Both the position numbers and the translations under genes were made by a program. Below the pieces are notes generated by a model. The model did no database searches. It saw only the letters and a list, made by a program, of their open reading frames with translations, and had not been told where the DNA came from. Below are positions 2,379 through 36,508 of a stretch of 64,000 nt of DNA, piece by piece. The DNA is from Oceanospirillales bacterium (lineage in GTDB: Bacteria; Pseudomonadota; Gammaproteobacteria; Pseudomonadales; Balneatricaceae). How positions within the stretch are numbered: the first letter of the stretch is position 1; every line of letters starts with the position of its first letter. The DNA lies in assembly GCA_029027825.1 (NCBI GenBank), contig CP093399.1, positions 177,828-241,827 on the forward strand, read 5' to 3'.

Positions 2379-3113
2379 TTAAACTGAATGAGTAAAAAAT
2401 CTTTTTAGACTAAAGCCGGACAGTGCGCCCATCATGATAAATAAGATCAACATGCCGACAGCAGTCATCAGATAAAACTCGCTGGTCAATTCTAACAGGT
2501 GCTGGATAGCTACAGGATCAGAGTTAGCAAACCCAGGCTCGCTAGCTAAAGGTGCGCCGATAAGATGTGGCAAAGCGATGACAAGGACGCCTGCAAGCTT
2601 AAATTTGTTCGCTGTATAATAGAGAATCGCAATACCTACCGCACTGGAAATAGCGCAAAAGAGCCACCAAATTTGACGGTGTTCAAGCTCTGCAGCATTG
2701 GTGCCAGGGACTTCTGGGTGTAATCCGAGCAGTGCTGGAGCGATAAAGATGCAAAACATAGCCACTATCCCCCAAGCAACCCCACGCACGGCATTCAATT
2801 TAGGCTTGACTGATTTTTGATTGTGCAGAGCCATCAAAGAAATCATAATCAGTGCGAGGGCGAAGGCGATCGTAATATTTGCAGCTAAGGTGGAAATGAT
2901 GCGAGGCATACCATCTTCTGGTGACCATGCCTCACCATGTGCGTGACCTGTGGTTACTGCTGCATGATGATGAGCGACCGTCGGTTCTGTTACTTCATAG
3001 GCTTCAGCTGCATAGATGATCGGATTGATTTGTAGTTGTTGGAAAAGCCCGTAGCTCAGGCCTGAAATGATACCGACCATCAAAGCCGATAATATTAGAT
3101 TGCGCAAAGTCAT
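2379..3113 (-). CDS. cbtA: Cobalt transporter subunit CbtA
   Basis: PIIYAAEAYE, His-rich loop HHHA...GHAHGEAWSPEDG, LHPEVPG..AAEL..RQIWW; downstream of cbtB and a B12 riboswitch. Confidence 0.88.
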   Translation of the reverse strand: MTLRNLILSALMVGIISGLSYGLFQQLQINPIIYAAEAYEVTEPTVAHHHAAVTTGHAHGEAWSPEDGMPRIISTLAANITIAFALALIMISLMALHNQKSVKPKLNAVRGVAWGIVAMFCIFIAPALLGLHPEVPGTNAAELEHRQIWWLFCAISSAVGIAILYYTANKFKLAGVLVIALPHLIGAPLASEPGFANSDPVAIQHLLELTSEFYLMTAVGMLILFIMMGALSGFSLKRFFTHSV

Positions 3114-22772: not shown

Positions 22773-22810
22773 TTAAGCCTCAGCTGCTCAGCTGGGGCTT
22801 TTTAGTTTTA
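22773..22810 (+). terminator. Rho-independent terminator (copy 1 of a 38-bp direct repeat)
   Basis: aagcctcagc-tgctca-gctggggctt followed by a T-run; 35/38 identical to 36181-36218. Confidence 0.75.
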
Positions 22811-22811
22811 A

Positions 22812-23019
22812 CCTGAATAAGTGACTTCACTGCACCACATAGCGCAAGCTCTTGATTCACGGCGGTTAGAAAAATGCCCGCTGAACCTACGGGTTTTATG
22901 CATGGATGCATTTATTTAGCGAATGCAGGACGCATATGAGCTTGCAGCTAAGATTTTTCAATTCCATCGTAAAACTAATATCTTACACTCTGTATTCACT
23001 TTGAAGTCACGGATTCAGG
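22812..23019 (-). mobile_element. MITE-like repeat family A, 208-bp copy (inverted)
   Basis: Reverse complement aligns end to end with 39497-39704; TIRs present. Confidence 0.85.
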
Positions 23020-23334
23020 TTTAACTAACGGCTCATTGCTCGTTTAGCATGATGCTTCAAAATCAGGCTTTCTAAAATCGCTGAATTACTAACAAGTTGA
23101 TTTTTAATTATATATATTAGTTCCTGATTGACCATCATACTCCGCTTGACTTGATAACTGTCTAACAAAGTGATTAATTCCAACAAGTTAAGCGAAGTTA
23201 TAATATGTTTTTATCATTTAATAATGGTTTAGATTATAGCCAGGTCATTTATTTGTAATTTTTTTTTACTTTAGGTTAGTCTGTGAAGACACAGCACTAA
23301 TCAGGTAGTGTTTTGTTTTTCCTCTGTGCAGCGC

Positions 23335-23396
23335 CTCTGTGTCCTCTGTGGTGAAAAAATCTTTAAAGGATTAGTTTTACGACAGAGGACACAGAG
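23335..23396. repeat. Long hairpin of CACAGAG/CTCTGTG type
   Basis: ctctgtgtcctctgtggtgaaaa pairs with ttttacgacagaggacacagag; inner aatctttaaaggatt. Confidence 0.6.
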
Positions 23397-23804
23397 AAGA
23401 GATTAAAAGCATCTTTTGCTGCGCTGTGGCGGAAACACATGGCTAATCAGGTATTAGTTTATCACCTGCAGGATAACTTGCATTCGTAGAATGAGCTGAT
23501 CCGATTTTGCTCTCCTTATTAATTCAGTACGTTGTCTTCTGCTGATTAAAATTATTTAGAAAAATAACTGTATTGAATAGCATTCTCTATATGCCAAATT
23601 TTTAATAGAGCGTCCAGAAGTGTTTTTAATAAAATAATTTGAAATTATCAAAAAAAACCTTACAAATTTACCTTGCGTTCATTTTGGCAAATCAATAAAC
23701 TCCTTTCCTTAGTTGTTGTTCATTTTACGTTCAGCTTTATTTCGCTTCAAATCATAGAAAGCGTATTAACCTAAACGAATGAGATCTTGCCTAGGAGGCT
23801 GTAA

Positions 23805-25520
23805 GTGTTGTCTTATATTAAATTATATGTACTTAACCTAGCGTTATTTATAGTAAAACTGCACGTTCTATTAATCGCACTAGTTTCTACCTATAGCTAC
23901 GCAAGCTCTCATATTAACCCTCAAGTTATCAATCGAGCTGTTAACGAAATAGATCGGCAAATCAGGCTGCAACGAGAAATCGAAAAATCACTGTTGCCCG
24001 AGAGCCAGCCTAAACAGACCATTCAAACTAACCCCCTGCAGCAGAGTAAAGTTTTAGAGGGTGGTCCATGTTTTAAAATCCGTAAAACAATATTAATCGA
24101 TAGCACTGGCCTTTTACCTATTCCCCTTGACTACACAAAGCTCAATGGTCAATGTGCAGATAGGAAAGCCCTTGTTCAACTATTAGAAAGCATCAATATT
24201 TACTATCAGCAGCAGGGGTTAATAACCACTCGGGTTTACCTTAAGCAGCAGAATTTAAAAAGTGGTGAATTGCTCCTTGTTGCTAAAGCGGGAATATTAA
24301 CAGGCTTTAATTATATATTTGGCAAACCAGTAGATAGACGAGTCACCAGCGCTTATCCTTTTTCTGAAGGAGATTTGATCACCCTAAGAGAGTTAGAACA
24401 GGGATTAGATAACTTAAATAGACTGCAATCACAATCCGCTAAAACTGAATTACAACCAGGTGAACAGCTAGGCCAATCGCAATTAGCCATTGATATAACC
24501 AATGCCAAACCTTGGAGAATTGATTTAGGGTTAAATAACTACGGCGTTAAAACAACCGGAACACGTAAAGCATCCATTGGTTTTGGCTATGATAACCTAT
24601 TGAACCTTAATGATGATTTATATGTAAGCTACAACCAAAATACCAACTCTAGTGCTGCGAACAAACGCAGTAAGAGCTTATCTTTTAGCTACAATATTCC
24701 CTATAAAAATTGGCTGTTTAACTTTTCAACCAGCCAGTACAACTATCGACGGGTACTCTCTGGTATCAATCAAAATTACGACATCGATGGCTTTAGCAAC
24801 AATCGCCGCGTCGGTGCCGATTATCTGTTGTTTCGAAATCAGCAATCACGCGTGTATGCCACTTCCAGCCTAACCCTTAAAAAAAGCCGCAACTTCATTG
24901 AAGATACTGAAATTGAATCACAGTACCGTCGCATAACTTTATTGGAGTTGGGCTTAAAGGGAGATCATCAATTCCAAAATCAAAACTTTATCGACTGGTC
25001 AGTTAGGGTGGTTAAAAACCTAAAAATCCTCACTAGTATGCATGTCATACCGGGGCTTGCTGATGATGATTTTAAATACTTAAGGGGGGGTATAAAACTT
25101 GATGTTCCCCTGGCAAAAAATCGCTACAAATATTCTACCGAGCTAGTATTTCAATATTCAGACGATGAGTTAACTGGCTCTGAGCAATTTAGCGCAGGCG
25201 GCTTAGGCAGTGTCAGAGGCTTCCACACTGAGTCGATCTACGGCAATACCGGTATGTATTGGAGAAACACCTTCTCCACCGCCAATAAAAGTTTTGGTAA
25301 ATGGCAGCTAAAGCCTGAAATATCGTTTGATCTAGGCGCCGTAAAAAGCCCCGCTACTATCACTTGGAGCGACCCTTTGGTGGCAGGTGTCGGTTTAGGA
25401 CTAAGTGCAACATACAAAAAACTTTCAATTAAATTAAATGTGGCTAGGGCAATAAAGCGCCCTAATCAATTAAGAGGCTCAAAAAACCAAGCCTTCTTTT
25501 CACTAAATTACGCATTTTAA
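23805..25520 (+). CDS. cdiB: TpsB/CdiB (ShlB/FhaC/HecB family) secretion pore
   Basis: POTRA motifs GLITTRVYL and LRELEQGLDNLNRL, EQFSAGGLGSVRGF (VRGF motif), C-terminal Phe; directly upstream of TpsA. Confidence 0.9.
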   Translation: MLSYIKLYVLNLALFIVKLHVLLIALVSTYSYASSHINPQVINRAVNEIDRQIRLQREIEKSLLPESQPKQTIQTNPLQQSKVLEGGPCFKIRKTILIDSTGLLPIPLDYTKLNGQCADRKALVQLLESINIYYQQQGLITTRVYLKQQNLKSGELLLVAKAGILTGFNYIFGKPVDRRVTSAYPFSEGDLITLRELEQGLDNLNRLQSQSAKTELQPGEQLGQSQLAIDITNAKPWRIDLGLNNYGVKTTGTRKASIGFGYDNLLNLNDDLYVSYNQNTNSSAANKRSKSLSFSYNIPYKNWLFNFSTSQYNYRRVLSGINQNYDIDGFSNNRRVGADYLLFRNQQSRVYATSSLTLKKSRNFIEDTEIESQYRRITLLELGLKGDHQFQNQNFIDWSVRVVKNLKILTSMHVIPGLADDDFKYLRGGIKLDVPLAKNRYKYSTELVFQYSDDELTGSEQFSAGGLGSVRGFHTESIYGNTGMYWRNTFSTANKSFGKWQLKPEISFDLGAVKSPATITWSDPLVAGVGLGLSATYKKLSIKLNVARAIKRPNQLRGSKNQAFFSLNYAF

Positions 25521-25535
25521 TACAGAGCCATCATC

Positions 25536-28500
25536 ATGAATAATACTATCACCCCCACTAACAACGTGCTTAAACTTCACTGTACTCGAGTGTTAGTCGC
25601 GCTATTAACCTTTCAATTAGCTTTTCAACCGATGACGGCCCTTGCTGAAAATTTTAAACTTGAAGGTGGTGGGAATCACGCACCCAGTACAAGTCGCCCA
25701 TTTGTAGATGGCGCTAATAATGGTGTACCCGTTGTAAATATCAACACGCCTAATAGCCAAGGGCTATCCCACAACACTTACCAGCATTTCAATGTATCCC
25801 CTAGTGGGGTGGTGCTCAATAATAATGCCACCAATGTAAATAGCCAACAGGCGGGTTGGATTGGAGGAAACCCTAATTTGCGGACGGGCAACGAAGCTCG
25901 AATAATTCTCAATGAAGTCATAGGTGCCAGCCGATCACAACTGAATGGCTACATAGAAGTAGCCGGTAAAAAAGCCAATGTGATAGTAGCAAACCCCAAT
26001 GGGGTTACTTGTAATGGCTGTGGTTTTGTCAATACAGATCGAGTAATCCTCACCACCGGTGCTGCACAATTTAACAATGATGGATCATTAAACGCATTTA
26101 GGACCACCACTGGCGACATTCAAATCTTAGGTAATGGTTTAGATGGATCAGGTCAACAGCGAGTAGATATTTTAGGTCAGGCCGTAAAAGTATATGGCAA
26201 AATAAAAGTACAAGGTAAGCTAAATGTTGTCACAGGTAACAACAGCATTGATTACTTAAATGGCCAAGTCACTAAAAATTCAGAGACTGCGGAAGATGGA
26301 AGCATCGGTTTAGATGTATCCAATTTAGGGGGTATGTACGCCAATCAAATCAACTTACAAGTTATTGATAAAGGTGCGGGCGTCAACATGCAAGCGGGGG
26401 AGCTGATTGCCATTGATCAGATATTTTTATCCGCTGATGGTGAGGTTGCTATTGCAGGAGGAAGAATAGAGAGCAGCCAAGCAGACATCATCATCAATGC
26501 TAACAAACTCAGCATAAATGCTGACGAAAATGATACCACTAGCCAGTGGTTAGCCAAACAAGATATCGTTATTAGCACCCAAGCTGATACTAGCCTTAAT
26601 AAAGTCAGTTTTGCTAGCGAAAAGAACATTTCAATTAGCCAAACCAAGTCTGAGTTAGCAGCAAATAGCCATGTATTGCACATAAAGAACAGTCAGTTAG
26701 AAGCCAAGGGAAATCTAAATATAACCGCTGATAAATTAATAATAAGCAACCAATCGGCACTGATAGCAGAGATAAAACTACAGCTGCAAGGCATTGACAT
26801 TGAACTGACTGACAGTGCATTAGTGGTACACACCGATTCTGTAAACAGCAACTATGGTGATCTGCTGATAAGCGCAGAAAAATCTTTTTCAATGACTGGC
26901 GGCTCAATCACTGCAGCCAACAACTTAGATCTACAAGCCAGTTATATTGAAATTAAAAACGCACGGGTAGCGGCACTACACAACTTAACCTTGAATGGAG
27001 TTGGCAGTTTAGCGGCAGACATCGTCAAGGCCGGGCAAATCACTATCGAAGACAGCTACGTGATAGCCGCAGCCGGTGATTTAAAACTTTTTGCCAATAC
27101 CGTAGAGATTAAAGGCACATATGAGTTAGATATCAACAACCTGGAAATTAGAGACGCTAATGGCAATGCGAAGAGCAAAAGCCAACTCTGGGCAGGTAAT
27201 AACATTGAAATCCAAAGTTCAACATTCACCAATACTAACGGCTTACTGTGGGCCGCAAATGATCTACAAATAGATTTAGATGGCCAAGGCACGCGTGCAG
27301 AACGGATTAGCAACCAACAAGGGACCTTAGTGGTAGCCAATGGTGACGTCACTCTAGCAGCAGATTTGGTTGAAAACACCGGTCAAAAGCCCACTTTTAT
27401 TGTCGATGGCATCAATGAAACCTGGACTGACTTAGCAGGCGTTTCAGCAACAGATGTTATTGGCGACACTTATAAATTAATTGATGCGCAATACCTTACC
27501 AACGGCAAGGTAGATAGTACTAACAATGCCGCCTATTTAGATTTATTAATAAGCTTAATGGAAGGAACCCCACTGACAACGGCTGCTAAGAACTTGCTAA
27601 AAGATAGTGTGATCGACGGCGATAAAGTGAAGTCAGAGCTGCGAAACAGCTGGAATTTATTAAAAACCAAAGCCACCGCTCAAAGTATTGCCGATTTAGA
27701 TACTTATTTAAAAGGCTTGCTTGCAACCACCATTGAAAAAGAGATAGCGGGTGTTACCCAAGAGATTACCGTCAGCTTGGCCAGTGGCCTTAATCCTTTA
27801 ATATTAGATGATTACTTAGCACTGTGGGAAGCCGTTATTAACGGAGGCACAATCCCTACCAACAGTTTATCGTTGATTAAAGCTGAAAATAAAACAGATG
27901 AGCAACTGATTAGCAGTGTAAATACTAAGTTCGTTAACATGCGCGCCAGTACCAATGTGCCTTATGAAATCAAGTACTTTTTAAAGGCTGATAAATTAAA
28001 TTTAGACGGCTTTCTCGGTCGAATAATTGCCGGCAATGATATAAATATTGATAGCGATCGCTTTAAAAATATCCACGCAAACCTAGCCGCTGGTAATGAC
28101 ATCACTATTACTGCAGATTCAGAGATGGTCAATCAATCTTTCGCCGCATCAAAAGTAATCGTAGAAGTACACAAAAAAGCCTGTTTTACCTGTCATGAGG
28201 GAAAACAGGGTTATGGGGATAGCTTTGGTGGCAAGCTACAAGCTAAAAATAACTTCTTGTTAAACGTAGCCATAGGTAATTTAAGTAGTACGGTTGAAGA
28301 GAGCAGTAACGGCGACAGTAAAATTGCAGATTTGGTGGTGGCAGTCAATCAAGATACAAGTGCTACCCGTGACCAGTTAGATGAAACCCACGATAATCGC
28401 AGCGACGAAGCTGCTGTCATTACCGCAAAACAGGATTCAGTGGATAGCCTAGGCACTCGTCAAACTGAAGTAAGTGCGGACACAAGAGTAGACAATGCAA

Positions 28501-31500
28501 CAGTCATTAACGGTGAAAATACCAGTGTCAAAATAGTGACCACTGATGGTGTAGTGATAAACATACCAAGGTCACTGATCGGGGTTATCGAAGACAAAAT
28601 TGATACCAGTGAAGTCCCTTTATCTGAAGCACAACTCTACCCCCGTGAGTTGAATTTAAATTATACGGATTATCTAACCTTCTTATCTTCCGCTTTTACA
28701 GCAGGACGATTAGGTAACCATCGTGAATTACGTGACGCAGCGTTTGGTGATGGTTTTCCAAGCCCTGGACAGCTAGCAGACGGCTTCGACAATACTTTAG
28801 GTGATGGTTGGTCTAACCGCAATACCGCTATCGCCAATGAGAATGCATTGACCCGAGAAGAATGGTTACAGCGTACTCAAAGAGCCATGAGAAAAATACA
28901 GCAGCAAATAAAAATCGAGACCTTTATTAGTGGTGCACTCGTTTCAATAATGGATAAAGGTGCTATTAATACACAAAATAGCCTTCACCAAGGTGGCGCA
29001 CTAATTGCCGCACAACAGATTAATTTAAATGTAAAAGGTGATATTAACTTACAAGGTGAAGTTAATGCTGAGCAGCAATTAACCATAGCTACTCAAGGGG
29101 ATCTAAATAGCGAGGCGCAGTTAACCGCTACAAATCAACTGACGATAGACGCTGAAAATATTAAGCAAACAGGCGGTGCTATTAAGGCTAAAAATGTAAT
29201 TTTAAAATCCCAACAAGACACTGACATAATTGCCAGTAATATTGCAGCAGAACAAAATCTTAGTATCGAAGCTGGTAATGACATAAGCATCGGCTCGCAA
29301 TTAAACAAGAGCACCGGCATTAGAGCTGGAAAGCGCTGGAACAGTGAAAAACGAATCGCCTCAGAAATAAACGCCGGTGGTGATATTTCTTTGACCTCCG
29401 GGCAAGATGTCAACATCAAAGGCAGCAGTGTTACCGCACAACAGGCGATAGATGTCACAGCTGGTCGCGATATAAATATTCTATCAGAAACTGAAAAGCG
29501 CGATTATTCCTACACTCAGACAACGGAAAAAATTCTAACTGAGCAAAGCCCTACAGTAAAATCTAGAGACACAGCCGTTGTATCAACCATCACCAAAACG
29601 ACAGTTAACGCTACTGAGCTTGCACAAGCGAAATCCATCCTGAACAGCGGTGCAGATATAACCTTAAATGCAGGTCGCGACTTAAACATCAGCGCTTCTG
29701 ATTTAGTAACTGATAGTAATATTGTTGCACATGCGGATGGCGAGATAAATATAAGCTCGGCCATTACAGAACGCAATGAAGCGAAAGCCGTATCGAAAGC
29801 GACAGTGGTTAAACCTGCCTACAGAGCAAACACGGGTAAATACCGCGACAGAGACGTTGTCTTCAGTGAAGAGAATCAACTCAACGAGCATAAAAAAATC
29901 CAAGTCGCCAGCCACTTAGATGCCCTTGGCAACATACAGCTTAGCTCAGGAACTGATACGACCATTAATGCCAGTCAACTGAATGCCGGTGGCTATATTG
30001 CGATCAAAGCTGCGGATGACATCAATATCACCGCTGAAAATAATCAAATCAATACCTATACAAAGATAGGCAATACCACACAAGCGAACCAAGATACTGT
30101 CGCCGCAGTGTCTGAACTTAAGTCTATCGGCAATTTAATTCTCGAATCAGGCGCTGATGTAAACTTAGAAGGCACTGTACTAGCGGCAATAGAGAAATTA
30201 GAAGTGACCGCCGCAGGGAATATCAACGTAGCAGCGGTGAAACAGCAGCATAATCAACAGCAGCGAACTACAGGCAGTTATACAGAGAATAGACGTCGTA
30301 GAGACGATGACTATACGGTGACCATAGAAACTAGCAATAGCAAGAACTCTCAGTTGACAGACTATAAAGGTGCTAGCTTAAAAGGCGATGGTGTCAGTAT
30401 TTCATCAGGTAAGAGTATTACCGCCACAGCGGCTAATATTGTCAGTGACGATAAGCTAACGCTTAGCGCTGGCGATGATGTTAATTTGGAGGCCGCACAA
30501 GGTACAAGTCAGACACAAACCGATAATACCGGCGGGTCAAAAGGTTTCTTGGGTGGCAGAGGAGCGGCTAAAGTCCAAACAAATACAACCTTCCAACAAG
30601 GCACAACGCTTGAATCAACAGGGGATACTGAAATAACAGCCCTGCAAGATATAAACGTAGCGAGTTCGACTATTCGTGCAAAGCAAGATATCAATATTGC
30701 TGCTGCCAATAATATAATAATCACATCAGAGCGCGAATCCTCAAGTACAAAGAAGGCTTACAGAAATACTTACAATAATAATATGACCCAATCGGGCAGT
30801 GAAATATCTGCCGATGGTAGTACATTGTTATACGCGCAGCAAAACATTGGTGTCGAGGGCTCGCTTATCGATGCCAAAGAAACAACTAAGCTGCAAGCAG
30901 ATGAAAACATTGTAATAAGTTCTGCCGAGGAGTTTAGAACATCAGGCTACTCTTATAAAAAGAAAAGTGGCTTCATGGGGCATCGCAAAAAATCGATCAA
31001 ACACAGCGAACAATACTTAACACACAAAGCCGCGACGCTAAGCGGGGATGAAGGGGTTGAAATAAGCTCTGGTGCTAACACTCAAATAGTTGCGTCAGAT
31101 GTCATCTCTTCCAAGAGTGATATAAACATCGCAACAGGTGGTGAGTTACTACAGTTAGCTCAACTAGATAAAACCCGTATACAACACTCCAAGAAAAAGT
31201 CTTCTGCGTGGGGCTTAGTCAAAAAAAATCATACTTTAGATAAAGTTAATCACTCGGCAAATGGCAGTATTTCTGAAGCGATGGGTAATGTTGCTCTGCG
31301 CTCTGGTGGTAGCACACGATTACAGGCAAGCGAGTTCAAAGCAGCGTCGGTCAACATAACAGCGGGTATTGATACTCAAGGGCAAGTCATCAACCCTAAC
31401 GCTAAAATATACCTAGATTCCATCACCGAGTTTTCTTCACTGCGTGAATCAATTTTTGACTCATCTGGCCTTAAATACATCAGCATAGATAAAGGTTTTG

Positions 31501-34500
31501 AAAAAACCCAAGAAGCACAGACTAAAATCAGTGCCGATACTATTGCTTTAAAAGCAGCAGCGGGTATTGATGCCTCTGTGGGGGTTGCACCTGAGGGAAG
31601 CTTAGAGCAAGCCATGGATAAGCTGGTGGCAGAGCCGGGCATGGAATGGCTCAAAGAGCTTAAGCAACGAGACGATGTTAATTGGCAGGCAGTCGAAACT
31701 GAATTTAATGATTGGCACTACGAGCAGTCGGGTTTAAGCGCGCTAGCTTCACTGATTATTGCAATTGCCGTGGGTGTGGCGATGGGGCCGATGGGAGCTG
31801 GCTATGTCGGAGGATCTGGTGGGGTTGGTGCTGCAGCAGCTGCAGGAGGAGGCTCAATTGGCACCGCAGTGGGAAGTGGTGCGTTGGGGATAGCTTTAGA
31901 GGCAGGTACAGTTTCTTTAGCGACAACAGCAAGCATTAGCTTAATTAATAATAAGGGTGATATAGGCGCTGTATTCAAAGAGCTAGGTAGTAGCGCCAAT
32001 GTTAAAAGCTTAATTACCAGCATGGTTACAGCTGGTGTTGTTAATAAGGCTGGTCTTTCAAAGCTGACAAATGTGGATGCCAGCTTTACAGATCATCTAA
32101 AAGGTGCCATCTATACTAGCGCGATTGAAACAAGTGCTAAAGTAGCGATTAATGGTGGCAGTTTCAAAGACAGTTTCAAAGACAGTTTAAAAGGCAGTTT
32201 CTTGAGTAACTTAGTAGATGTAGCAGGTAAAAATGTTACTAAGCTAATAGGTGATCAAGAGCATACGGATACTGGAGGTCTTGGCTGGAAGCAAGCTGGA
32301 GTTGAGAAAACATTAGCCCATGCTTTAGTAGGCTGTGTAACAAGTGCAGCCAAAGGCGGAGATTGTAAAGCAGGTGCGATAGGTGCCGCAGTCGCCGAAC
32401 AGTTATCACCATATTTGGAAGATAACAGTGAAAATAAAGAATGGGAGATTGAGCTAACTAATCAGCTGAGTTTAGCATTAATCAGCGCAGGGGCGGCCGC
32501 AATAGCTGGTGGTAGCGATGAAGAACTTGTTGATGCGGCGAACAGTGCGAAACAGACCGACAACTATAACCGTAAATTGCACTTAGATGAAATCCAAGCG
32601 ATTAAAGAAAAAGCTAAGCAATTAAGTGTATTACACCCTGAAAAAACAGAAGTTGAATGGATTGAAGCGCTAGGCATGGAAGCACTGCGCAGAACAGATA
32701 AGCTTCACCGCATACAAAACAAGGTTACTCTAGATCCTCTGGTCGTTAAATCATTGGATGAGCTTGCATTCAAACATGGCACAGCGTTCAGTAAGAAGGT
32801 AGCAGGCCAGTTTAACTTCCTAGGTCAAGATGCTTACTATGAAAACTCAGCGACTTTTGCTGGTAATATTTTAACTAATCGTGAATTTTATGATGATGTC
32901 TTTGCCAGTGCGGTACCTGAAAACAATTTAGGATTTACCGGCAGCGATGTCGCATTAATTCACTCTATGGCCAATGTTGGAATAAAAACTTATGGCTTTA
33001 ATGACAATACCTTTGATGCAGATGACTTCCAGATCCTAGACCCTAGCGACGAGAAATCTGATTTAGATAATATGCTGACGTTAAAAATGTTAGGCAATGA
33101 ATTAAATCAAACTTTAAAAAAGTCGCGTGTAATCGATCGATTGGCAAAAAAAGAATATTTTACTTTAAAAAATCAGCGTGAATCCGATCCGAATACAGTG
33201 ACTCAACAGCAAGTTGAGAGTGCTTATGATAAATGGGGTGTAACGGGTAATATCGTTCGAATCGCATCTAAAGGGCAAAAAGTTGTCACTTTTGAAATAG
33301 GCGCGTTGCTTAATAAGGGAATTCGCGGTGGAGCGGCAAATGCTGTCGGTAAGATCGCAGAAGATACTCTTAGATTATTAGCAGGCGTGCCATTCGCAGT
33401 GACGCTACTTGCGAGTGCGGCTGCAGGTGATGAAAGCTCACGGGCTGAAGTTAACCAAGCATTAGCCGCTGTTGCTGATGTCCTACAAAACTTAGATAAA
33501 CTGCCACAGCAGACCGCAGATGCAATAATGGCAGATTTAGAGCGTGCAGAAGCAGCTTACAATAACGGTGAACTCGAAAAAGCTGGTGAAATAGTCGGTC
33601 AGTTACAAGCCGAAATGATTTCAGCCGCAGGTGCAGTAGGCGGAGCAGCAAAAGGTTTAAGCTCTGGCTTGCAATACTTTGCGAAGAAAGTGAACAAACC
33701 TAATGCAGATAAATACGGCTCTGAGTTAGCGACAAATTGCTCTTTCGCAGGTAATACACAAGTATTAACCTCTAACGGGTATATCCAAATAAGCCAGTTA
33801 CGTGAAGGTGAGAGCGTTTGGTCAAGAAACAGTAATAATGGTCAAATGGGCTGGAAAACAGTCTTAGCGCAATATTCTAATCCTTATAAATACACGGTGA
33901 ATGTGAGTATTGCAGATAGGCAATCAGGTGAGATACAAACGATTACTTCTAATCGCATCCATCCGTTTTTCGTACAAACTGTAGAAAAAGTAGCTAAGAA
34001 CTCTGAAGAACATGATTATCAAGGACCAATAGCAAATGGGCAGTGGGTAGATGCCTCTGAATTAAAAGCAGGCTATAAGCTTTTAAATGATGATCAGAGC
34101 TGGTCAGAAGTCGTATCTATTAGTGTTGAAACTAAGTCATTTACAGCATACAATTTAACAGTTGATGATTACCATACCTATTTTGTAAAGGGAGAATCTT
34201 CTAGGGAAGTGAGGCCAGTTTGGGTTCATAATGATTGTTGGGATAGTAAACCAGATAGTGCAGAGGGTCTTACTGATACAAAAGATCCAATATCAACAAA
34301 CTTATCTCAACCTGGCGGGCTTAATGCAACAGAAGGAGATAGGGTCGTCAAACCAAATGGGAAGCTCACTAAACCGACACATCCTCTCGCTAAACATGGC
34401 CCTGATGTAACTGATGAGTACTTAATCACGCGTGTTGAAACTGAGTTATTAAAAGGTAAACGGCCAAGAGAAGGGTTTCGTACGAAATTTAATGATAGAG

Positions 34501-34769
34501 CCCAAATGGAGGAAGCTATCAATAATGTCGTAGAAACGCGCAAAGTTGATATTGATGATTGGTTAACTTCAAACCCTAATCCCGGTTCTTTAATGAGCTT
34601 CAGTGCAAGTTCGAAAATTGATAACTTAGGGAAAGGATTTCAAAGTGTAAAGCAAGCTGATGGCAGCTTTAAAATCGAACCGATTACGAGACCATTAAAT
34701 GAAGTTAATTTAGTTCTCAAGTCTGATGGCGCAGGCGGTTATCTAATACACACAGCTCATCCACAGTAG
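25536..34769 (+). CDS. cdiA: CdiA-like TpsA: signal peptide, TPS domain, FHA repeats, DUF637-like region, pre-toxin Hint, RNase A-like C-terminal toxin
   Basis: NPNL and VANPNGVTCNGCGF, hemagglutinin repeats, MEWLKELKQRDDVNWQAVE...GLSALASLIIAIAV, Hint CSF...YFV...WVHN, tip HPLAKH..TDE.L.R...F.DR..V.LVLK...YLIHTAHP. Confidence 0.88.
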   Translation: MNNTITPTNNVLKLHCTRVLVALLTFQLAFQPMTALAENFKLEGGGNHAPSTSRPFVDGANNGVPVVNINTPNSQGLSHNTYQHFNVSPSGVVLNNNATNVNSQQAGWIGGNPNLRTGNEARIILNEVIGASRSQLNGYIEVAGKKANVIVANPNGVTCNGCGFVNTDRVILTTGAAQFNNDGSLNAFRTTTGDIQILGNGLDGSGQQRVDILGQAVKVYGKIKVQGKLNVVTGNNSIDYLNGQVTKNSETAEDGSIGLDVSNLGGMYANQINLQVIDKGAGVNMQAGELIAIDQIFLSADGEVAIAGGRIESSQADIIINANKLSINADENDTTSQWLAKQDIVISTQADTSLNKVSFASEKNISISQTKSELAANSHVLHIKNSQLEAKGNLNITADKLIISNQSALIAEIKLQLQGIDIELTDSALVVHTDSVNSNYGDLLISAEKSFSMTGGSITAANNLDLQASYIEIKNARVAALHNLTLNGVGSLAADIVKAGQITIEDSYVIAAAGDLKLFANTVEIKGTYELDINNLEIRDANGNAKSKSQLWAGNNIEIQSSTFTNTNGLLWAANDLQIDLDGQGTRAERISNQQGTLVVANGDVTLAADLVENTGQKPTFIVDGINETWTDLAGVSATDVIGDTYKLIDAQYLTNGKVDSTNNAAYLDLLISLMEGTPLTTAAKNLLKDSVIDGDKVKSELRNSWNLLKTKATAQSIADLDTYLKGLLATTIEKEIAGVTQEITVSLASGLNPLILDDYLALWEAVINGGTIPTNSLSLIKAENKTDEQLISSVNTKFVNMRASTNVPYEIKYFLKADKLNLDGFLGRIIAGNDINIDSDRFKNIHANLAAGNDITITADSEMVNQSFAASKVIVEVHKKACFTCHEGKQGYGDSFGGKLQAKNNFLLNVAIGNLSSTVEESSNGDSKIADLVVAVNQDTSATRDQLDETHDNRSDEAAVITAKQDSVDSLGTRQTEVSADTRVDNATVINGENTSVKIVTTDGVVINIPRSLIGVIEDKIDTSEVPLSEAQLYPRELNLNYTDYLTFLSSAFTAGRLGNHRELRDAAFGDGFPSPGQLADGFDNTLGDGWSNRNTAIANENALTREEWLQRTQRAMRKIQQQIKIETFISGALVSIMDKGAINTQNSLHQGGALIAAQQINLNVKGDINLQGEVNAEQQLTIATQGDLNSEAQLTATNQLTIDAENIKQTGGAIKAKNVILKSQQDTDIIASNIAAEQNLSIEAGNDISIGSQLNKSTGIRAGKRWNSEKRIASEINAGGDISLTSGQDVNIKGSSVTAQQAIDVTAGRDINILSETEKRDYSYTQTTEKILTEQSPTVKSRDTAVVSTITKTTVNATELAQAKSILNSGADITLNAGRDLNISASDLVTDSNIVAHADGEINISSAITERNEAKAVSKATVVKPAYRANTGKYRDRDVVFSEENQLNEHKKIQVASHLDALGNIQLSSGTDTTINASQLNAGGYIAIKAADDINITAENNQINTYTKIGNTTQANQDTVAAVSELKSIGNLILESGADVNLEGTVLAAIEKLEVTAAGNINVAAVKQQHNQQQRTTGSYTENRRRRDDDYTVTIETSNSKNSQLTDYKGASLKGDGVSISSGKSITATAANIVSDDKLTLSAGDDVNLEAAQGTSQTQTDNTGGSKGFLGGRGAAKVQTNTTFQQGTTLESTGDTEITALQDINVASSTIRAKQDINIAAANNIIITSERESSSTKKAYRNTYNNNMTQSGSEISADGSTLLYAQQNIGVEGSLIDAKETTKLQADENIVISSAEEFRTSGYSYKKKSGFMGHRKKSIKHSEQYLTHKAATLSGDEGVEISSGANTQIVASDVISSKSDINIATGGELLQLAQLDKTRIQHSKKKSSAWGLVKKNHTLDKVNHSANGSISEAMGNVALRSGGSTRLQASEFKAASVNITAGIDTQGQVINPNAKIYLDSITEFSSLRESIFDSSGLKYISIDKGFEKTQEAQTKISADTIALKAAAGIDASVGVAPEGSLEQAMDKLVAEPGMEWLKELKQRDDVNWQAVETEFNDWHYEQSGLSALASLIIAIAVGVAMGPMGAGYVGGSGGVGAAAAAGGGSIGTAVGSGALGIALEAGTVSLATTASISLINNKGDIGAVFKELGSSANVKSLITSMVTAGVVNKAGLSKLTNVDASFTDHLKGAIYTSAIETSAKVAINGGSFKDSFKDSLKGSFLSNLVDVAGKNVTKLIGDQEHTDTGGLGWKQAGVEKTLAHALVGCVTSAAKGGDCKAGAIGAAVAEQLSPYLEDNSENKEWEIELTNQLSLALISAGAAAIAGGSDEELVDAANSAKQTDNYNRKLHLDEIQAIKEKAKQLSVLHPEKTEVEWIEALGMEALRRTDKLHRIQNKVTLDPLVVKSLDELAFKHGTAFSKKVAGQFNFLGQDAYYENSATFAGNILTNREFYDDVFASAVPENNLGFTGSDVALIHSMANVGIKTYGFNDNTFDADDFQILDPSDEKSDLDNMLTLKMLGNELNQTLKKSRVIDRLAKKEYFTLKNQRESDPNTVTQQQVESAYDKWGVTGNIVRIASKGQKVVTFEIGALLNKGIRGGAANAVGKIAEDTLRLLAGVPFAVTLLASAAAGDESSRAEVNQALAAVADVLQNLDKLPQQTADAIMADLERAEAAYNNGELEKAGEIVGQLQAEMISAAGAVGGAAKGLSSGLQYFAKKVNKPNADKYGSELATNCSFAGNTQVLTSNGYIQISQLREGESVWSRNSNNGQMGWKTVLAQYSNPYKYTVNVSIADRQSGEIQTITSNRIHPFFVQTVEKVAKNSEEHDYQGPIANGQWVDASELKAGYKLLNDDQSWSEVVSISVETKSFTAYNLTVDDYHTYFVKGESSREVRPVWVHNDCWDSKPDSAEGLTDTKDPISTNLSQPGGLNATEGDRVVKPNGKLTKPTHPLAKHGPDVTDEYLITRVETELLKGKRPREGFRTKFNDRAQMEEAINNVVETRKVDIDDWLTSNPNPGSLMSFSASSKIDNLGKGFQSVKQADGSFKIEPITRPLNEVNLVLKSDGAGGYLIHTAHPQ
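33738..34232 (+). other. Pre-toxin Hint (bacterial intein-like) domain within CdiA, Cys2735 to C-terminal His-Asn (165 aa)
   Basis: CSFAGNTQV, NRIHPFF, AYNLTVDDYHTYFV, VWVHN; next residue is Asp. Confidence 0.88.
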
Positions 34770-34778
34770 GTCGATATC

Positions 34779-35069
34779 ATGAATTGGGAAAAAGGTCTAG
34801 GAAACATATTTGGTGCATACATCAATCAGCAAACATTAGAAGATGGTGTTGAAGAAATGACAGATGTTAGTGCAGACGATATTAGTTGTCACAATGACTT
34901 CTTGTCATGTATTGAGAATGGTATTAACTCATGTAAACAAAATGAACAGACTTCTATATCCTTAATTAATAAAAGTGGTTATCAAGTTAGAAATCTCGAG
35001 TCCGCATTAGAAATTCTTCAAGATTTAATGGAAGCATATAAAGAAAGTTACTCTAATAAATGTAATTAA
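34779..35069 (+). CDS. cdiI: CdiI immunity protein for the RNase A-like toxin
   Basis: 96-aa acidic ORF 9 bp after the cdiA stop; LGNIFGAYINQ resembles the L.xFgaYFHQD start of immunity proteins paired with RNase A-like tips. Confidence 0.75.
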   Translation: MNWEKGLGNIFGAYINQQTLEDGVEEMTDVSADDISCHNDFLSCIENGINSCKQNEQTSISLINKSGYQVRNLESALEILQDLMEAYKESYSNKCN

Positions 35070-35106
35070 AAATTTGATGGGAGTAGCTTTACCTTCTGCG
35101 CCGTAG

Positions 35107-35670
35107 ACTATTAGTGCAGAGGGTAATGCAGCTTCAACAAATAAGCCAAACTCTGGTACTCAGCCGGGGGCAACTGACGCTGAAGCTGGCACTGCGGGTA
35201 GTGGAATTAAATCAGGTTTCGGTGTGCCAGAAAACATGCCACCTCGACACGAGTTATTTGATGTAGAAGGAATTTCTGTAAATCGTCAGTCTCATGTGCT
35301 TGATGGACAAGTAAATCAAAGCGGAACAAGAGCTACAGGTGGTCATTGGCTGGGATCAACGAATGTACGACCAGTTTCTGGCTCAGCTCAAGAAATTGGT
35401 AACGGTGTGATTTCGGCTGAAATCAAAATCCTTGATTCTAATACTGGCGCTTATATCCTCAAGTCTAACAACGGAGGCCGATCTACTTTATTCCCTGCAA
35501 ATTGGAATTCTAATAGAGTTATGGATGAGGTGTCTGTTGCAAATAACAATGCAGTTCGGGTTGGCAATAGTAATTATTACGATGGTGTTTCTCCGTCAGG
35601 CGTCATAGTTAGGTTCGTAAAACCTAACGGTAAAGACTCAGTTACTTTTTATCCAAGAGATCCGCAATGA
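35107..35670 (+). pseudogene. Orphan toxin C-terminal module, bacterial EndoU-like RNase
   Basis: Frame open from 35107 with no ATG before the linker (possible GTG 35224/ATG 35236); SHVLDG...GGH, STLFPANW, YDGVSPSGV, TFYP. Confidence 0.78.
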
Positions 35671-36137
35671 ATAAGAAAGAAGTAAATTTGAAAAGTACTT
35701 CGGTAAATATTAAGTGGTCTGATGATAACCCAAAATTACGCCACTATATTGTTGATGGTAGTGATCGTGCTCAAAGTGTGATTTCTTGGGTTTATAATAC
35801 GAGTTGTTCTACTCCTCAACTGATTATTAATGATTGTAAGTCTGTATTAGACAAAATAAACCTTTTGAAAGAAACAGGATTGAACTCAAGCCATGGTTCT
35901 CTCTATTCATATAATCAGTTGTTCAATTTAGATAACCTAGCAGAGATAAGGGATGAGTGGGACTTCAATGATTGTGTATTCTTACCTATAGAAGAGCTTA
36001 TAAAAGTCATTGAGCACTTTCATCGGCTGTTTGTTGATCAGAGGTCTGGTGTTATAAATTTTTCTCTTTATGACTTAGAGCCATCTTATCGATCTGATGC
36101 TGAGCACTTTGATGAAAACGGAAATGTTGTTTTTTGA
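35667..36137 (+). CDS. Putative immunity protein for the orphan EndoU toxin
   Basis: ATGA overlap with the toxin stop; 156-aa acidic protein; position typical of CT/immunity pairs. Confidence 0.65.
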   Translation: MNKKEVNLKSTSVNIKWSDDNPKLRHYIVDGSDRAQSVISWVYNTSCSTPQLIINDCKSVLDKINLLKETGLNSSHGSLYSYNQLFNLDNLAEIRDEWDFNDCVFLPIEELIKVIEHFHRLFVDQRSGVINFSLYDLEPSYRSDAEHFDENGNVVF

Positions 36138-36180: not shown

Positions 36181-36218
36181 TTAAACCTCAGCTACCCAGC
36201 TGGGGCTTTTTAGTTTTA
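36181..36218 (+). terminator. Rho-independent terminator (copy 2 of the 38-bp direct repeat)
   Basis: aaacctcagc-taccca-gctggggctt plus T-run. Confidence 0.7.
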
Positions 36219-36292
36219 GCTAGCCTGCTGTTGAATAATGGCATCTAGAAAGGCAATGGGGTCGCGTCTTGCCTTCAGGACAGACACCTACT

Positions 36293-36508
36293 TTGCCAGC
36301 AATCTTCCAGCAGAACAAAATCTTAGTATCGAAGCTGGTAATGACATAAGCATCGGCTCGCAATTAAACAAGAGCACCGGCATTAGAGCTGGAAAGCGCT
36401 GGAACAGTGAAAAACGAATCGCCTCAGAAATAAACGCCGGTGGTGGAATTTCTTTGACCTCCGGACAAGATGTCAACATCAAAGGCAGCAGTGTTACCGC
36501 ACAACAGG
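36293..36508 (+). repeat. 216-bp duplicate of cdiA stalk segment 29230-29445, carried in ORF 36238-36546
   Basis: Direct comparison: 3 mismatches in the 201-bp core plus 3 in the first 15 bp; same codon phase as cdiA. Confidence 0.92.

What the first reader, a model, noticed from the sequence alone, without database searches (positions are those of the whole stretch)
34256..35124. 13-bp in-frame microhomology links the orphan EndoU tip to the post-Hint linker
Seen: tagtgcagagggt occurs at 34256-34268 (eight codons after the Hint Asn) and at 35112-35124 (start of the orphan frame), encoding SAEG in both reading frames. The linkers stay similar (SAEG...QPG..AT). Deleting the 856 bp between them would replace the RNase A tip and its immunity gene with the EndoU tip, in frame. 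The orphan has no Hint fragment as a long homology arm, so exchange would rely on microhomology, or the 13-mer is the scar of the event that displaced EndoU.
Basis: partly seen in the sequence, partly recalled or inferred. Interest (0 to 1): 0.72.

Follow-up and report, generated by a model that had tools for sequence, protein, structure and literature searches.

The report
Conserved junction box for toxin cassettes
The 13-base repeat is real and is the core of a short sequence "box" at every toxin-tip junction in this bacterium's two contact-dependent toxin loci (two full genes, four spare tips), so it most likely marks where tips are swapped, a new variant of a known design with no swap yet observed.

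Summary
TAGTGCAGAGGGT occurs only at 34256-34268 and 35112-35124 in the whole 4.79-Mb genome. It reads SAEG in both frames, and removing the 856 bp between the copies gives an open 3092-aa CdiA-EndoU frame.

It is not an isolated microhomology or a one-off scar. A second cdi locus lies 2.36 Mb away. Its cdiB and the first 4953 nt of its cdiA are about 99% identical to those in the window. That gene has the same junction (GAT-GGT-GCA-GAG-GGA, DGAEG).

That locus carries three orphan tips: a deaminase, a tRNase and an unknown toxin. Each starts, like the window's EndoU orphan, with a nearby stop codon followed by ACT-MTT-RGT-GCA-GAG-GGN (T[I/L][S/G]AEG). This 17-nt orphan box is present at 4 of 4 orphans and in none of 189 other genomes of the family.

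Main genes and orphans share only 11-13 nt. I read the box as this lineage's counterpart of the VENN handle, meaning the toxin boundary and the likely recombination joint.

The claimed similarity of the linkers is not significant.

The parts
23805..25520 (+). cdiB-1, the TpsB outer-membrane transporter (571 aa)
   Evidence: Pfam ShlB 1e-76, POTRA_2 and POTRA_3. It is 99.4% identical in DNA to cdiB-2 at G000:C1:2585338-2587053.
25536..34769 (+). cdiA-1 (3077 aa): TPS domain, FHA repeats, DUF637, PT-HINT, RNase A-like tip
   Evidence: Pfam TPS 5e-53, Fil_haemagg_2, DUF637, PT-HINT 2.9e-32, RNAse_A_bac 29.9 bits against a cut-off of 27. Its first 4953 nt are 98.7% identical to cdiA-2.
33774..34232 (+). 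PT-HINT (bacterial intein-like) domain, residues 2747-2899, ending VWVHN
   Evidence: Pfam PF07591 and PF14890. The WVHN end is followed by DCWDSKPDSAEG, which fits the xC[WYF]xxLPxxA post-Hint motif found in 18 of 64 distinct homologues.
34254..34268 (+). Main-type junction box GAT-AGT-GCA-GAG-GGT (DSAEG); it contains copy 1 of the 13-mer (34256-34268)
   Evidence: It matches 13 of 15 nt of the cdiA-2 junction GATGGTGCAGAGGGA.
34269..34769 (+). Variable tip: an 11-codon linker, then the RNase A-like toxin module, whose conserved part starts at LSQPGG (34302)
   Evidence: Five relatives (50-54% identity) on Pseudomonas PT-HINT CdiA, another CdiA and Rhs-type carriers all start their homology at LSQPGGLxATEG.
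34779..35069 (+). cdiI-1, the presumed immunity gene for the RNase A tip (96 aa)
   Evidence: It is 32% identical (E=2e-19) to the 99-aa gene that follows the Pseudomonas CdiA carrying the related tip. It has no Pfam match.
35070..35103 (+). Non-coding spacer; 35080-35101 is the 5' arm of a stem-loop that pairs with 35114-35135
   Evidence: RNA fold -26.4 kcal/mol, z=-3.97, with 0 of 200 shuffles as stable. Positions 35089-35101 are an inverted 11/13 copy of GTGCAGAGGGTAA. The stem-loop is not conserved at the other three orphan junctions.
35104..35124 (+). Orphan-type junction box TAG-ACT-ATT-AGT-GCA-GAG-GGT (stop-T-I-S-A-E-G); it contains copy 2 of the 13-mer (35112-35124)
   Evidence: Genome-wide, the 21-nt consensus TAGACTMTTRGTGCAGAGGGT is found only at the four orphan starts, with 0, 0, 0 and 3 mismatches. 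The 17-nt core is at 4 of 4 orphans and in 0 of 189 other genomes of the family.
35107..35670 (+). Orphan cdiA-CT with no start codon at its head: a linker and an intact bacterial EndoU nuclease domain
   Evidence: Pfam EndoU_bacteria 4.3e-16 covering 2-127 of 129 positions. All 20 columns conserved at 80% or more across 44 family members are kept, including H63, GGH78-80, K119 and T127. The closest relatives are 61%, 59% and 50% identical, on other carriers.
35667..36137 (+). Orphan cdiI, the presumed immunity gene for the EndoU tip (156 aa); its ATG overlaps the TGA of the orphan CT
   Evidence: It is 54% identical (E=8e-60) to the gene that follows the related EndoU tip in metagenome contigs L009/L010.
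36186..36215 (+). The only terminator-like hairpin with a T-run in the array, placed after the orphan cdiI
   Evidence: No such site lies between cdiA, cdiI-1 and the orphan pair, so co-transcription is likely (inferred).
36293..36508 (+). 216-nt copy of the cdiA stalk (29230-29445) with sharp ends
   Evidence: It is 97% identical to cdiA-1 and 95% identical to cdiA-2. It shows that the 3' end of the locus has been rearranged before.

Best explanation
The 13-mer is the core of a conserved, coding junction box that marks the boundary between the constant CdiA body and the exchangeable toxin/immunity cassette. It does so in both contact-dependent inhibition (CDI) loci of this genome.

Shown:
- The two main genes read GAT-RGT-GCA-GAG-GGN (D-[S/G]-A-E-G) at the point where their toxin regions begin.
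- All four orphan cassettes begin with the same core. They are EndoU in the window, and a deaminase, a tRNase and an unknown toxin at the second locus.
- In the orphans the core is extended upstream by an untranslated ACT-MTT. A stop codon sits directly upstream in three orphans and two codons further upstream in the fourth.
- Main genes and orphans share nothing else.

Inferred: the box plays the role that the VENN-encoding segment plays in E. coli-type cdiA genes.
- New tip/immunity cassettes enter by recombination anchored in cdiA, or in a neighbouring cassette, and resolved in the box.
- This pushes the old tip downstream as an orphan that keeps its box.
- Because the box is read in one frame everywhere, any box-to-box crossover gives an in-frame toxin.
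It would make CdiA-Hint-EndoU but lose cdiI-1, so it should be rare and usually counter-selected.
- In the present state the EndoU cassette is a silent spare tip whose immunity gene is probably co-transcribed with the operon.
For: 1. The 13-mer is unique to these two sites in the genome and lies at the predicted boundary.

2. A blastn search with the junction found the second locus. It consists of cdiB-2, a 3242-aa CdiA-2 with a Toxin-deaminase tip and an Imm3 immunity gene, then three orphan tip/immunity pairs.

3. The six junctions align only over the box. The 17-mer ACTMTTRGTGCAGAGGG occurs 4 times in this genome, all at orphan starts. It occurs 0 times in 189 other genomes of the family and 0 times in the reversed-pattern control. 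The 21-nt consensus has no other copy with up to 4 mismatches.

4. Codon choice is identical in all six copies: GCA six of six and GAG six of six. In these genes GAG makes up only 34% of Glu codons and GCA 35% of Ala codons, giving about 3e-5 for the five further copies. The untranslated TAGACT is conserved too. The conservation is therefore at the DNA level and not only in the peptide.

5. The box lies 40-58 residues before each toxin domain in all cassettes that have a Pfam match.

6. Both cassettes in the window are genuine toxin/immunity units, because each pair recurs together elsewhere.

7. The closest natural relative of the EndoU cassette, in metagenome contigs L009/L010, sits in an array whose next orphan also keeps only a short linker patch of its main gene (51 nt, 84% identical) six codons after a stop.

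8. Literature:
- Orphans are remnants displaced by incoming cassettes through homologous plus illegitimate recombination (PMC6336857).
- Crossovers between tpsA and tpsC cassettes map to identity stretches of 5-23 bp (PMC3848433).
- Orphan CTs lack start codons but keep the demarcation motif (PMC3150448, PMC4725963).
Against: - No exchange has been seen. There are no close alleles of cdiA-1, cdiA-2 or any of the cassettes in 5.8 billion protein clusters, the GTDB species genomes, the JGI metagenomes or 400 genomes of the order. All three module proteins are singletons.
- 11-13 nt is below the length usually needed for efficient RecA recombination (general knowledge), so box-to-box events must be rare.
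- A conserved peptide function for D[S/G]AEG is not excluded.
- The origin of the shared untranslated TAGACTMTT is unexplained. So is the stem-loop seen at only one of the four orphan junctions.
- The box is confined to one genome, so all copies could descend from very few events.
Confidence: 0.68

Rival explanations
1. The box is conserved because the peptide D[S/G]AEG has a protein function, for example as a processing, release or translocation signal at the start of the delivered fragment. The DNA identity would then only reflect recent common descent, and the box would have no special role in recombination.
For: - The motif always lies 40-58 residues before the toxin domain.
- In cdiA-1 it overlaps the tail of a post-Hint motif (xCWxxLPxxA) conserved in 18 of 64 distinct PT-HINT homologues.
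- A similar ATEG sits at the start of RNase A-type tips on five carriers.
Against: - Orphans are not translated from the box, yet they keep it, together with untranslated upstream bases (TAGACTMTT).
- Codon choice is invariant against the local codon usage.
- The residues before AEG differ between main genes (xD) and orphans (T[I/L]).
- This rival does not exclude the recombination role.
Confidence: 0.15
2. The repeat is a one-off scar. An incoming Hint-RNase A-cdiI fragment recombined in cdiA, and its far end was joined illegitimately 13 nt upstream of the old constant/variable boundary. The 13 nt would then be a leftover with no wider meaning.
For: - The left edge is sharp, with upstream identity at background from the first base. 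The right edge is graded (10 of 18 nt).
- This is the published model for orphan formation (PMC6336857).
- A 216-nt stalk fragment downstream shows earlier illegitimate events.
Against: - The sequence just left of the 13-mer (TAGACTATT) is not random. It recurs in front of the box at the orphans of the second locus.
- Four of four orphans at two loci having the same 17-21-nt start cannot arise from independent random joints.
Confidence: 0.07
3. The cassettes are moved by a dedicated site-specific system, integron-like or carried by an integrase element, that recognises the box or a hairpin containing it.
For: - The boundary sequence is conserved and includes non-coding bases.
- A strong hairpin includes the box at the window's orphan.
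- A phage-integrase fragment lies after the locus-2 array.
- Earlier scan notes describe integrase elements that target PT-HINT ends in other genomes.
Against: - The window's locus has no recombinase gene. The 856-bp insert is filled by the tip and cdiI.
- The integrase piece at locus 2 is only a 94-aa C-terminal fragment.
- The hairpin is absent at the other three orphan junctions.
- The box has no resemblance to attC or dif-type core sites (inspection only).
Confidence: 0.05
4. The 13-mer repeat is a chance match.
For: About 30 chance 13-mer pairs are expected in any 64 kb, and 99 maximal repeats of 13 nt or more are present.
Against: - There are only two copies in 4.79 Mb.
- None of 19,772 random pieces matches the post-Hint segment by 12 nt or more.
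- The same core is present at four further toxin junctions.
Confidence: 0.01

Closest known systems
Orphan cdiA-CT/cdiI modules downstream of cdiBAI loci (E. coli EC93, Yersinia pseudotuberculosis PB1/+; Poole et al. 2011, PMC3150448)
   Same: The tip has no start codon and lies just after the operon's cdiI. It keeps the motif that marks the constant/variable boundary. It is followed by its own immunity gene, which has a start codon. Several orphans are stacked in a row at locus 2.
   Different: The demarcation motif is D[S/G]AEG and not VENN. Homology to the main gene is only 11-13 nt, whereas published orphans keep variable and sometimes long stretches upstream of VENN. The orphans also share an untranslated extension with an in-frame stop (TAG-ACT-MTT) that no main gene has.
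Class I (WVHN / bacterial intein-like, PT-HINT) CdiA proteins of Pseudomonas (Mercy et al. 2016, PMC4725963)
   Same: cdiA-1 has DUF637, a PT-HINT domain ending in WVHN, and a variable tip after it. A Pseudomonas PT-HINT CdiA carries a related RNase A-type tip with a related immunity gene.
   Different: That study found orphan modules only in P. aeruginosa, in loci that are not class I. Here a WVHN-type locus has an orphan. The variable region does not start at the Hint Asn but 12 residues later, at the AEG box.
Neisseria tpsA/tpsC cassettes and maf (MafB-CT) cassette arrays (Arenas et al. 2013, PMC3848433)
   Same: These are arrays of silent tips interleaved with immunity genes. Recombination into the expressed gene is rare and costs immunity. 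Crossovers were mapped to identity stretches of 5-23 bp.
   Different: In Neisseria the short identity stretches lie inside a larger homology domain. Here the box is the whole of the homology. No DNA uptake sequences or Hint fragments are present at the orphan starts.
Acinetobacter type-II cdi loci with stepwise displaced orphans (De Gregorio et al. 2019, PMC6336857)
   Same: Orphans are read as remnants pushed 5' to 3' by incoming cassettes through homologous plus illegitimate recombination. Fragments of the CdiA body occur at the 3' end of the array, like the 216-nt stalk copy here.
   Different: The orphans here have a uniform, very short conserved 5' boundary instead of ragged vestiges.

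Membership tests
CDI system (CdiB/CdiA/CdiI, two-partner secretion) | TpsB transporter gene next to a large TPS-domain, FHA-repeat exoprotein | tested here: met
   ShlB and POTRA domains in the 571-aa protein; TPS, Fil_haemagg_2 and DUF637 in the 3077-aa protein.
CDI system (CdiB/CdiA/CdiI, two-partner secretion) | Polymorphic C-terminal toxin after a pretoxin demarcation, with a small immunity gene directly downstream | tested here: met
   PT-HINT/WVHN followed by RNAse_A_bac (29.9 bits, cut-off 27). The tip recurs on five other carriers. A homologue of cdiI follows the related Pseudomonas tip.
CDI system (CdiB/CdiA/CdiI, two-partner secretion) | Contact-dependent growth inhibition and protection by the immunity protein | not testable with these tools
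   This needs competition assays.
Orphan cdiA-CT/cdiI module | Lies downstream of cdiBAI on the same strand; the CT frame has no start codon or N-terminal part; it is followed by an immunity gene with its own start | tested here: met
   The frame opens two codons after the TAG at 35104. The first in-frame starts are GTG 35224 and ATG 35236. The orphan cdiI ATG overlaps the CT stop. The pair is conserved in L009/L010.
Orphan cdiA-CT/cdiI module | Keeps the boundary motif of the main gene | tested here: met
   SAEG is encoded by the identical 12 nt in both.
Orphan cdiA-CT/cdiI module | A stretch of homology to cdiA upstream of the boundary motif, to serve as a recombination arm | tested here: not met
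   Upstream identity is at background from the first base, and there is no Hint fragment. Poole et al. also describe an orphan without significant identity to its cdiA (PMC3150448), so this feature is common but not universal.
Hint-anchored cassette arrays (MafB class 1-like) | Each orphan begins with a fragment of the Hint domain | tested here: not met
   PF07591 matches only inside cdiA-1 in the whole genome.
Bacterial EndoU nuclease toxins (PF14436) | Full-length domain match above the curated cut-off, with the family-conserved residues present | tested here: met
   59.9 bits against a cut-off of 25.3, covering profile positions 2-127 of 129. 20 of 20 conserved columns are kept. No PDB sequence match. 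Activity was not tested.
Site-specific cassette systems (integron-like) | An intact recombinase gene adjacent to the array and a structured recombination site at every cassette boundary | tested here: not met
   There is no recombinase in the window's locus and only a 94-aa integrase fragment after locus 2. A hairpin is present at 1 of 4 junctions.

The most novel reading that the evidence does not exclude
The stop-plus-box element (TAG-ACT-MTT-RGT-GCA-GAG-GGN) is a dedicated cassette boundary. It lets toxin/immunity cassettes move as units, within and between the two paralogous cdi loci and from foreign arrays, by very short-homology recombination without RecA arms or a dedicated recombinase. 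It may act through box-flanked circles or homology-facilitated illegitimate joins. In effect this would be an integron-like toxin cassette array built on an 11-21-nt coding box.
Probability: 0.15. Interest if true: 0.7.

Novelty: new variant of a known kind. Interest (0 to 1): 0.45.

Why it matters
Polymorphic toxin loci are thought to renew their toxin tips by recombination at a conserved handle, but how short and how specific that handle can be is poorly known.

Here one genome offers six junctions to compare: two expressed genes on different carrier architectures (with and without a Hint domain) and four silent tips. They share only an 11-13-nt coding box, and the silent tips share a 17-21-nt version that carries a built-in stop codon.

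If the box is the exchange site, this gives three things:
- A minimal natural substrate for measuring short-homology cassette switching.
- A new boundary motif (D[S/G]AEG) for annotating CdiA tips.
- A case where a WVHN/PT-HINT CdiA has orphans, which the Pseudomonas survey did not find for that class.

If the box is instead a peptide signal, it points to an unrecognised processing or delivery motif shared by unrelated toxin domains.

Tried and rejected
**Searches for natural alleles, none found**
- The EndoU tip in the genus, the family, and by pattern scan of the GTDB species genomes.
- The Hint region in the family. Across 5.8 billion clusters the best hit apart from the gene itself is about 50% identical.
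- An in-silico CdiA-EndoU fusion used only as a search query, to find long proteins ending in this tip (nothing).
- The EndoU immunity protein, by alignment scan of GTDB genomes and in 400 genomes of the order.
- The C-terminus of CdiA-2 in the family.
- Exact-sequence look-ups, which show that all module proteins are singletons.

**Read mining for the 856-bp deletion**

**Extended homology around the 13-mer**
- Rejected as not significant.

**My own first reading**
- It was a single scar from homology-facilitated illegitimate recombination.
- I dropped it as the main explanation once the same untranslated flank was found at the second locus.

**A conserved hairpin at the box**
- It is present only at the window's orphan.

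**PDB sequence matches**
- None for either tip.

**Promoter-like sites inside the array**
- No more than expected by chance.

**Composition**
- GC content does not set the 856-bp segment apart.

**Congener comparison**
- The cdiA of congener G011 shares the body (59% identity) but has another C-terminus, no orphans and no box.
Full report
**1. The observation**

TAGTGCAGAGGGT occurs at 34256-34268 and 35112-35124 and nowhere else in the window, even allowing one mismatch. It also occurs nowhere else in the 4.79-Mb genome.

The first copy lies in the 3077-aa ORF 25536-34769. It covers the last base of codon D2907 and codons S2908-A-E-G2911, which are +8 to +12 after the Hint Asn2899. The second copy lies two codons after an in-frame TAG (35104-35106), at the head of the open frame 35107-35670.

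Deleting the 856 bp from 34256 to 35111 in silico gives a single 3092-aa frame that ends in the second toxin.

A repeated 13-mer is not rare on its own in 64 kb: the window holds 99 maximal direct repeats of 13 nt or more. The position is what makes it significant. None of 19,772 random 90-nt pieces shares 12 nt or more with the 90 nt after the Hint Asn.

**2. The locus**

The locus runs as follows.
- cdiB (23805-25520; ShlB and POTRA domains).
- cdiA (TPS, FHA repeats, DUF637, PT-HINT at residues 2747-2900, RNAse_A_bac at 2949-3076).
- A 96-aa gene.
- The orphan frame (EndoU_bacteria, 4e-16).
- A 156-aa gene whose ATG overlaps the orphan's TGA.
- The only terminator-like hairpin with a T-run, at 36186-36215 after the orphan pair.

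Both small genes behave as cognate immunity genes.
- The 96-aa protein is 32% identical (E=2e-19) to the gene that follows a Pseudomonas PT-HINT CdiA carrying the related RNase A tip.
- The 156-aa protein is 54% identical (E=8e-60) to the gene that follows a 61%-identical EndoU tip in metagenome contigs L009/L010.

The orphan EndoU domain is intact. It keeps all 20 columns conserved at 80% or more across 44 family members.

The orphan has no Hint fragment. PF07591 matches only inside cdiA in the whole genome.

**3. Limits of the homology**

Upstream of the 13-mer, identity is at background from the first base. Downstream, the next 18 nt are 56% identical (P about 0.012, uncorrected), and identity is back at background by 45 nt. 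Gapped DNA and protein alignments are at chance level (P=0.40 and P=0.23).

Five relatives on a Pseudomonas PT-HINT CdiA, another CdiA and Rhs-type proteins all begin their homology at LSQPGGLxATEG.

SAEG itself overlaps the tail of a post-Hint motif, xC[WYF]xxLPxxA. This motif is present in 18 of 64 distinct homologues of the Hint region.

**4. The turn: a second locus with the same box**

Folding the spacer showed that copy 2 is the 3' arm of a strong stem-loop. Positions 35080-35101 pair with 35114-35135 (RNA -26.4 kcal/mol, z=-3.97).

A blastn search of that junction against the genome then found two further near-copies 2.36 Mb away. They extend into the untranslated bases left of the 13-mer.

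That region is a second cdi locus on the minus strand. It consists of:
- cdiB-2.
- A 3242-aa CdiA-2 with FHA repeats, no Hint domain, a BURPS668_1122-type deaminase tip and an Imm3 immunity gene.
- Orphan A, a second deaminase 47% identical to the main tip, with its small gene.
- Orphan C, a CdiA_C_tRNase, with its small gene.
- Orphan B, an unassigned 179-aa tip, with its small gene.
- BrnT/BrnA, a 94-aa integrase fragment and an RHH/ParE pair.

The two loci are recent paralogues. cdiB is 99.4% identical in DNA and the first 4953 nt of cdiA are 98.7% identical without gaps. After residue 1739 the proteins are unrelated.

**5. The box**

The six toxin junctions read as follows.

| Junction | Sequence |
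|---|---|
| main-1 | CCA GAT AGT GCA GAG GGT |
| main-2 | GTT GAT GGT GCA GAG GGA |
| orphan EndoU (window) | TAG ACT ATT AGT GCA GAG GGT |
| orphan A | TAG ACT ATT GGT GCA GAG GGT |
| orphan C | TAG GAG AAT ACT CTT GGT GCA GAG GGA |
| orphan B | TAG ACT CTT GGT GCA GAG GGT |

- Main genes therefore share D-[S/G]-A-E-G.
- Orphans share T-[I/L]-[S/G]-A-E-G with a stop codon just upstream.
- Main genes and orphans share only the 11-13-nt core.
- An alignment of the four orphan junctions is invariant only over A.ACT.TT.GTGCAGAGGG.

Three counts show that the box is specific.
- The 17-mer ACTMTTRGTGCAGAGGG occurs four times in this genome, all at orphan starts. It occurs in none of 189 other genomes of the family and never in the reversed control.
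- The 21-nt consensus has no other genomic copy with up to 4 mismatches.
- RGTGCAGAGGGT has one unrelated genomic hit, roughly what chance predicts for a 12-mer.

Codon choice is the same in all six copies (GCA, GAG), although GAG makes up only 34% of Glu codons and GCA 35% of Ala codons in these genes. That gives about 3e-5 for five further copies. Together with the conserved untranslated TAGACT, this shows DNA-level conservation and not only a conserved peptide.

The box lies 40-58 residues before the toxin domain in every cassette with a Pfam match.

**6. Interpretation**

Shown: the 13-mer is the core of a conserved junction box at all toxin boundaries of two paralogous CDI loci. The cassettes behind it are unrelated toxins with their own immunity genes. 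No other homology links orphans to main genes.

Inferred: the box is this lineage's counterpart of the VENN-encoding handle, meaning the place where cassettes are joined to the carrier and displaced from it. The published model has incoming DNA pairing with cdiA and its non-homologous end being integrated illegitimately, with successive insertions pushing old tips downstream (PMC6336857). In Neisseria, crossovers between tpsA and tpsC were mapped to identity stretches of 5-23 bp and were rare, because immunity is lost (PMC3848433).

One scenario would explain two things at once: why each displaced tip keeps its box, and why it is preceded by the same inter-cassette sequence. In it, a donor fragment spans from the main gene through the first cassette to the next box, is anchored on the left, and is resolved in the box on the right. 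This is inference.

The 856-bp deletion is thus one possible box-to-box event. It would remove cdiI-1 and expose the cell to its siblings' RNase A toxin, so it should be rare and usually lost. The orphan cdiI is probably co-transcribed with the operon, since there is no terminator before 36186.

The closest natural relative of the EndoU cassette gives an independent parallel. In L009/L010 the next orphan starts six codons after a stop, with a 51-nt patch 84% identical to the main gene's linker and nothing more.

**7. Rivals**

- A purely peptide-level role for D[S/G]AEG is not excluded. It does not explain the untranslated conserved bases or the invariant codons.
- A one-off illegitimate scar was my first reading. 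It is contradicted by the recurrence of the left flank at another locus.
- A dedicated site-specific system lacks an intact recombinase and a conserved structured site.
- Chance is excluded.

**8. What could not be done**

No close allele of either cdiA, or of any cassette, exists in the collections searched. Neither natural recombinants nor deletion reads could therefore be examined.

The box is so far confined to one genome. That genome is probably a marine gammaproteobacterium of the Osedax-symbiont Rs1 group, judged from one 90%-identity protein cluster.

**9. Verdict**

The feature is a new variant of a known kind: orphan cdiA-CT/cdiI cassettes with a new, very short, uniformly conserved junction box shared by two loci. 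Interest is moderate. It would rise if box-to-box exchange were demonstrated.

Noticed in passing
window 35080-35135: A strong stem-loop (RNA -26.4 kcal/mol, z=-3.97) is formed by the cdiI-orphan spacer and the orphan's first 22 nt, including 11 nt of the box. The in-frame TAG sits in the loop and no U-run follows. It is absent at the other three orphan junctions. It could be an attenuator or an mRNA 3' stabiliser, a templated insertion left by the joining event, or chance.
   Followed up: partly
G000:C1:2573361-2587270 (outside the window; loci L018 and L023): A second cdi locus holds cdiB-2, a 3242-aa CdiA-2 with a deaminase tip and Imm3, and three orphan tip/immunity pairs (deaminase, CdiA_C_tRNase, unknown). 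These are followed by BrnT/BrnA, a 94-aa integrase fragment and an RHH/ParE pair.
   Followed up: yes
window 23588-30488 versus G000:C1:2580370-2587270: A segment of about 6.9 kb (217 nt upstream, cdiB and the first 4953 nt of cdiA) is 98.7-99.4% identical between the two loci. The copies lie in inverted orientation 2.36 Mb apart, which makes them a substrate for gene conversion or a large chromosomal inversion.
   Followed up: partly
window 36293-36508: A 216-nt copy of the cdiA stalk (29230-29445) with sharp ends lies after the array's terminator. It is 97.2% identical to cdiA-1 and 95.4% identical to cdiA-2. It is long enough for RecA-dependent unequal exchange, which could duplicate the 7063-bp unit or delete the toxin half.
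   Followed up: partly
window about 22800-23460: The region upstream of cdiB-1 contains MITE-like repeats with hundreds of copies across the genome, seen as blastn hits at 80-95% identity.
   Followed up: no
L009 1-2502 and L010 1-2646 (metagenome contigs Ga0193952_1013471 and Ga0193959_1013541): A CdiA-like gene without a Hint domain ends in a 61%-identical EndoU tip with a 54%-identical immunity gene. Next comes a 114-aa ORF, then a further orphan tip that begins with a 51-nt linker patch (84% identical) six codons after a stop.
   Followed up: partly
window 34302-34340; proteins P0246-P0250: RNase A-type tips on five unrelated carriers (a PT-HINT CdiA, another CdiA and Rhs-type proteins) all start with LSQPGGLxATEG. 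The ATEG resembles the [S/G]AEG box, and a congener's CdiA has KGTEG before its tip. A wider xA/T-E-G pre-toxin motif is possible.
   Followed up: no
window 36186-36270; L017 (G011:C3) at several sites: A repeated intergenic element combines CAATGGGGTCG with a terminator-like hairpin (AGCCTCAGC...CTGGGGCTTTTT). It recurs after genes in the congener G011, and a version of it follows the window's orphan cdiI.
   Followed up: no
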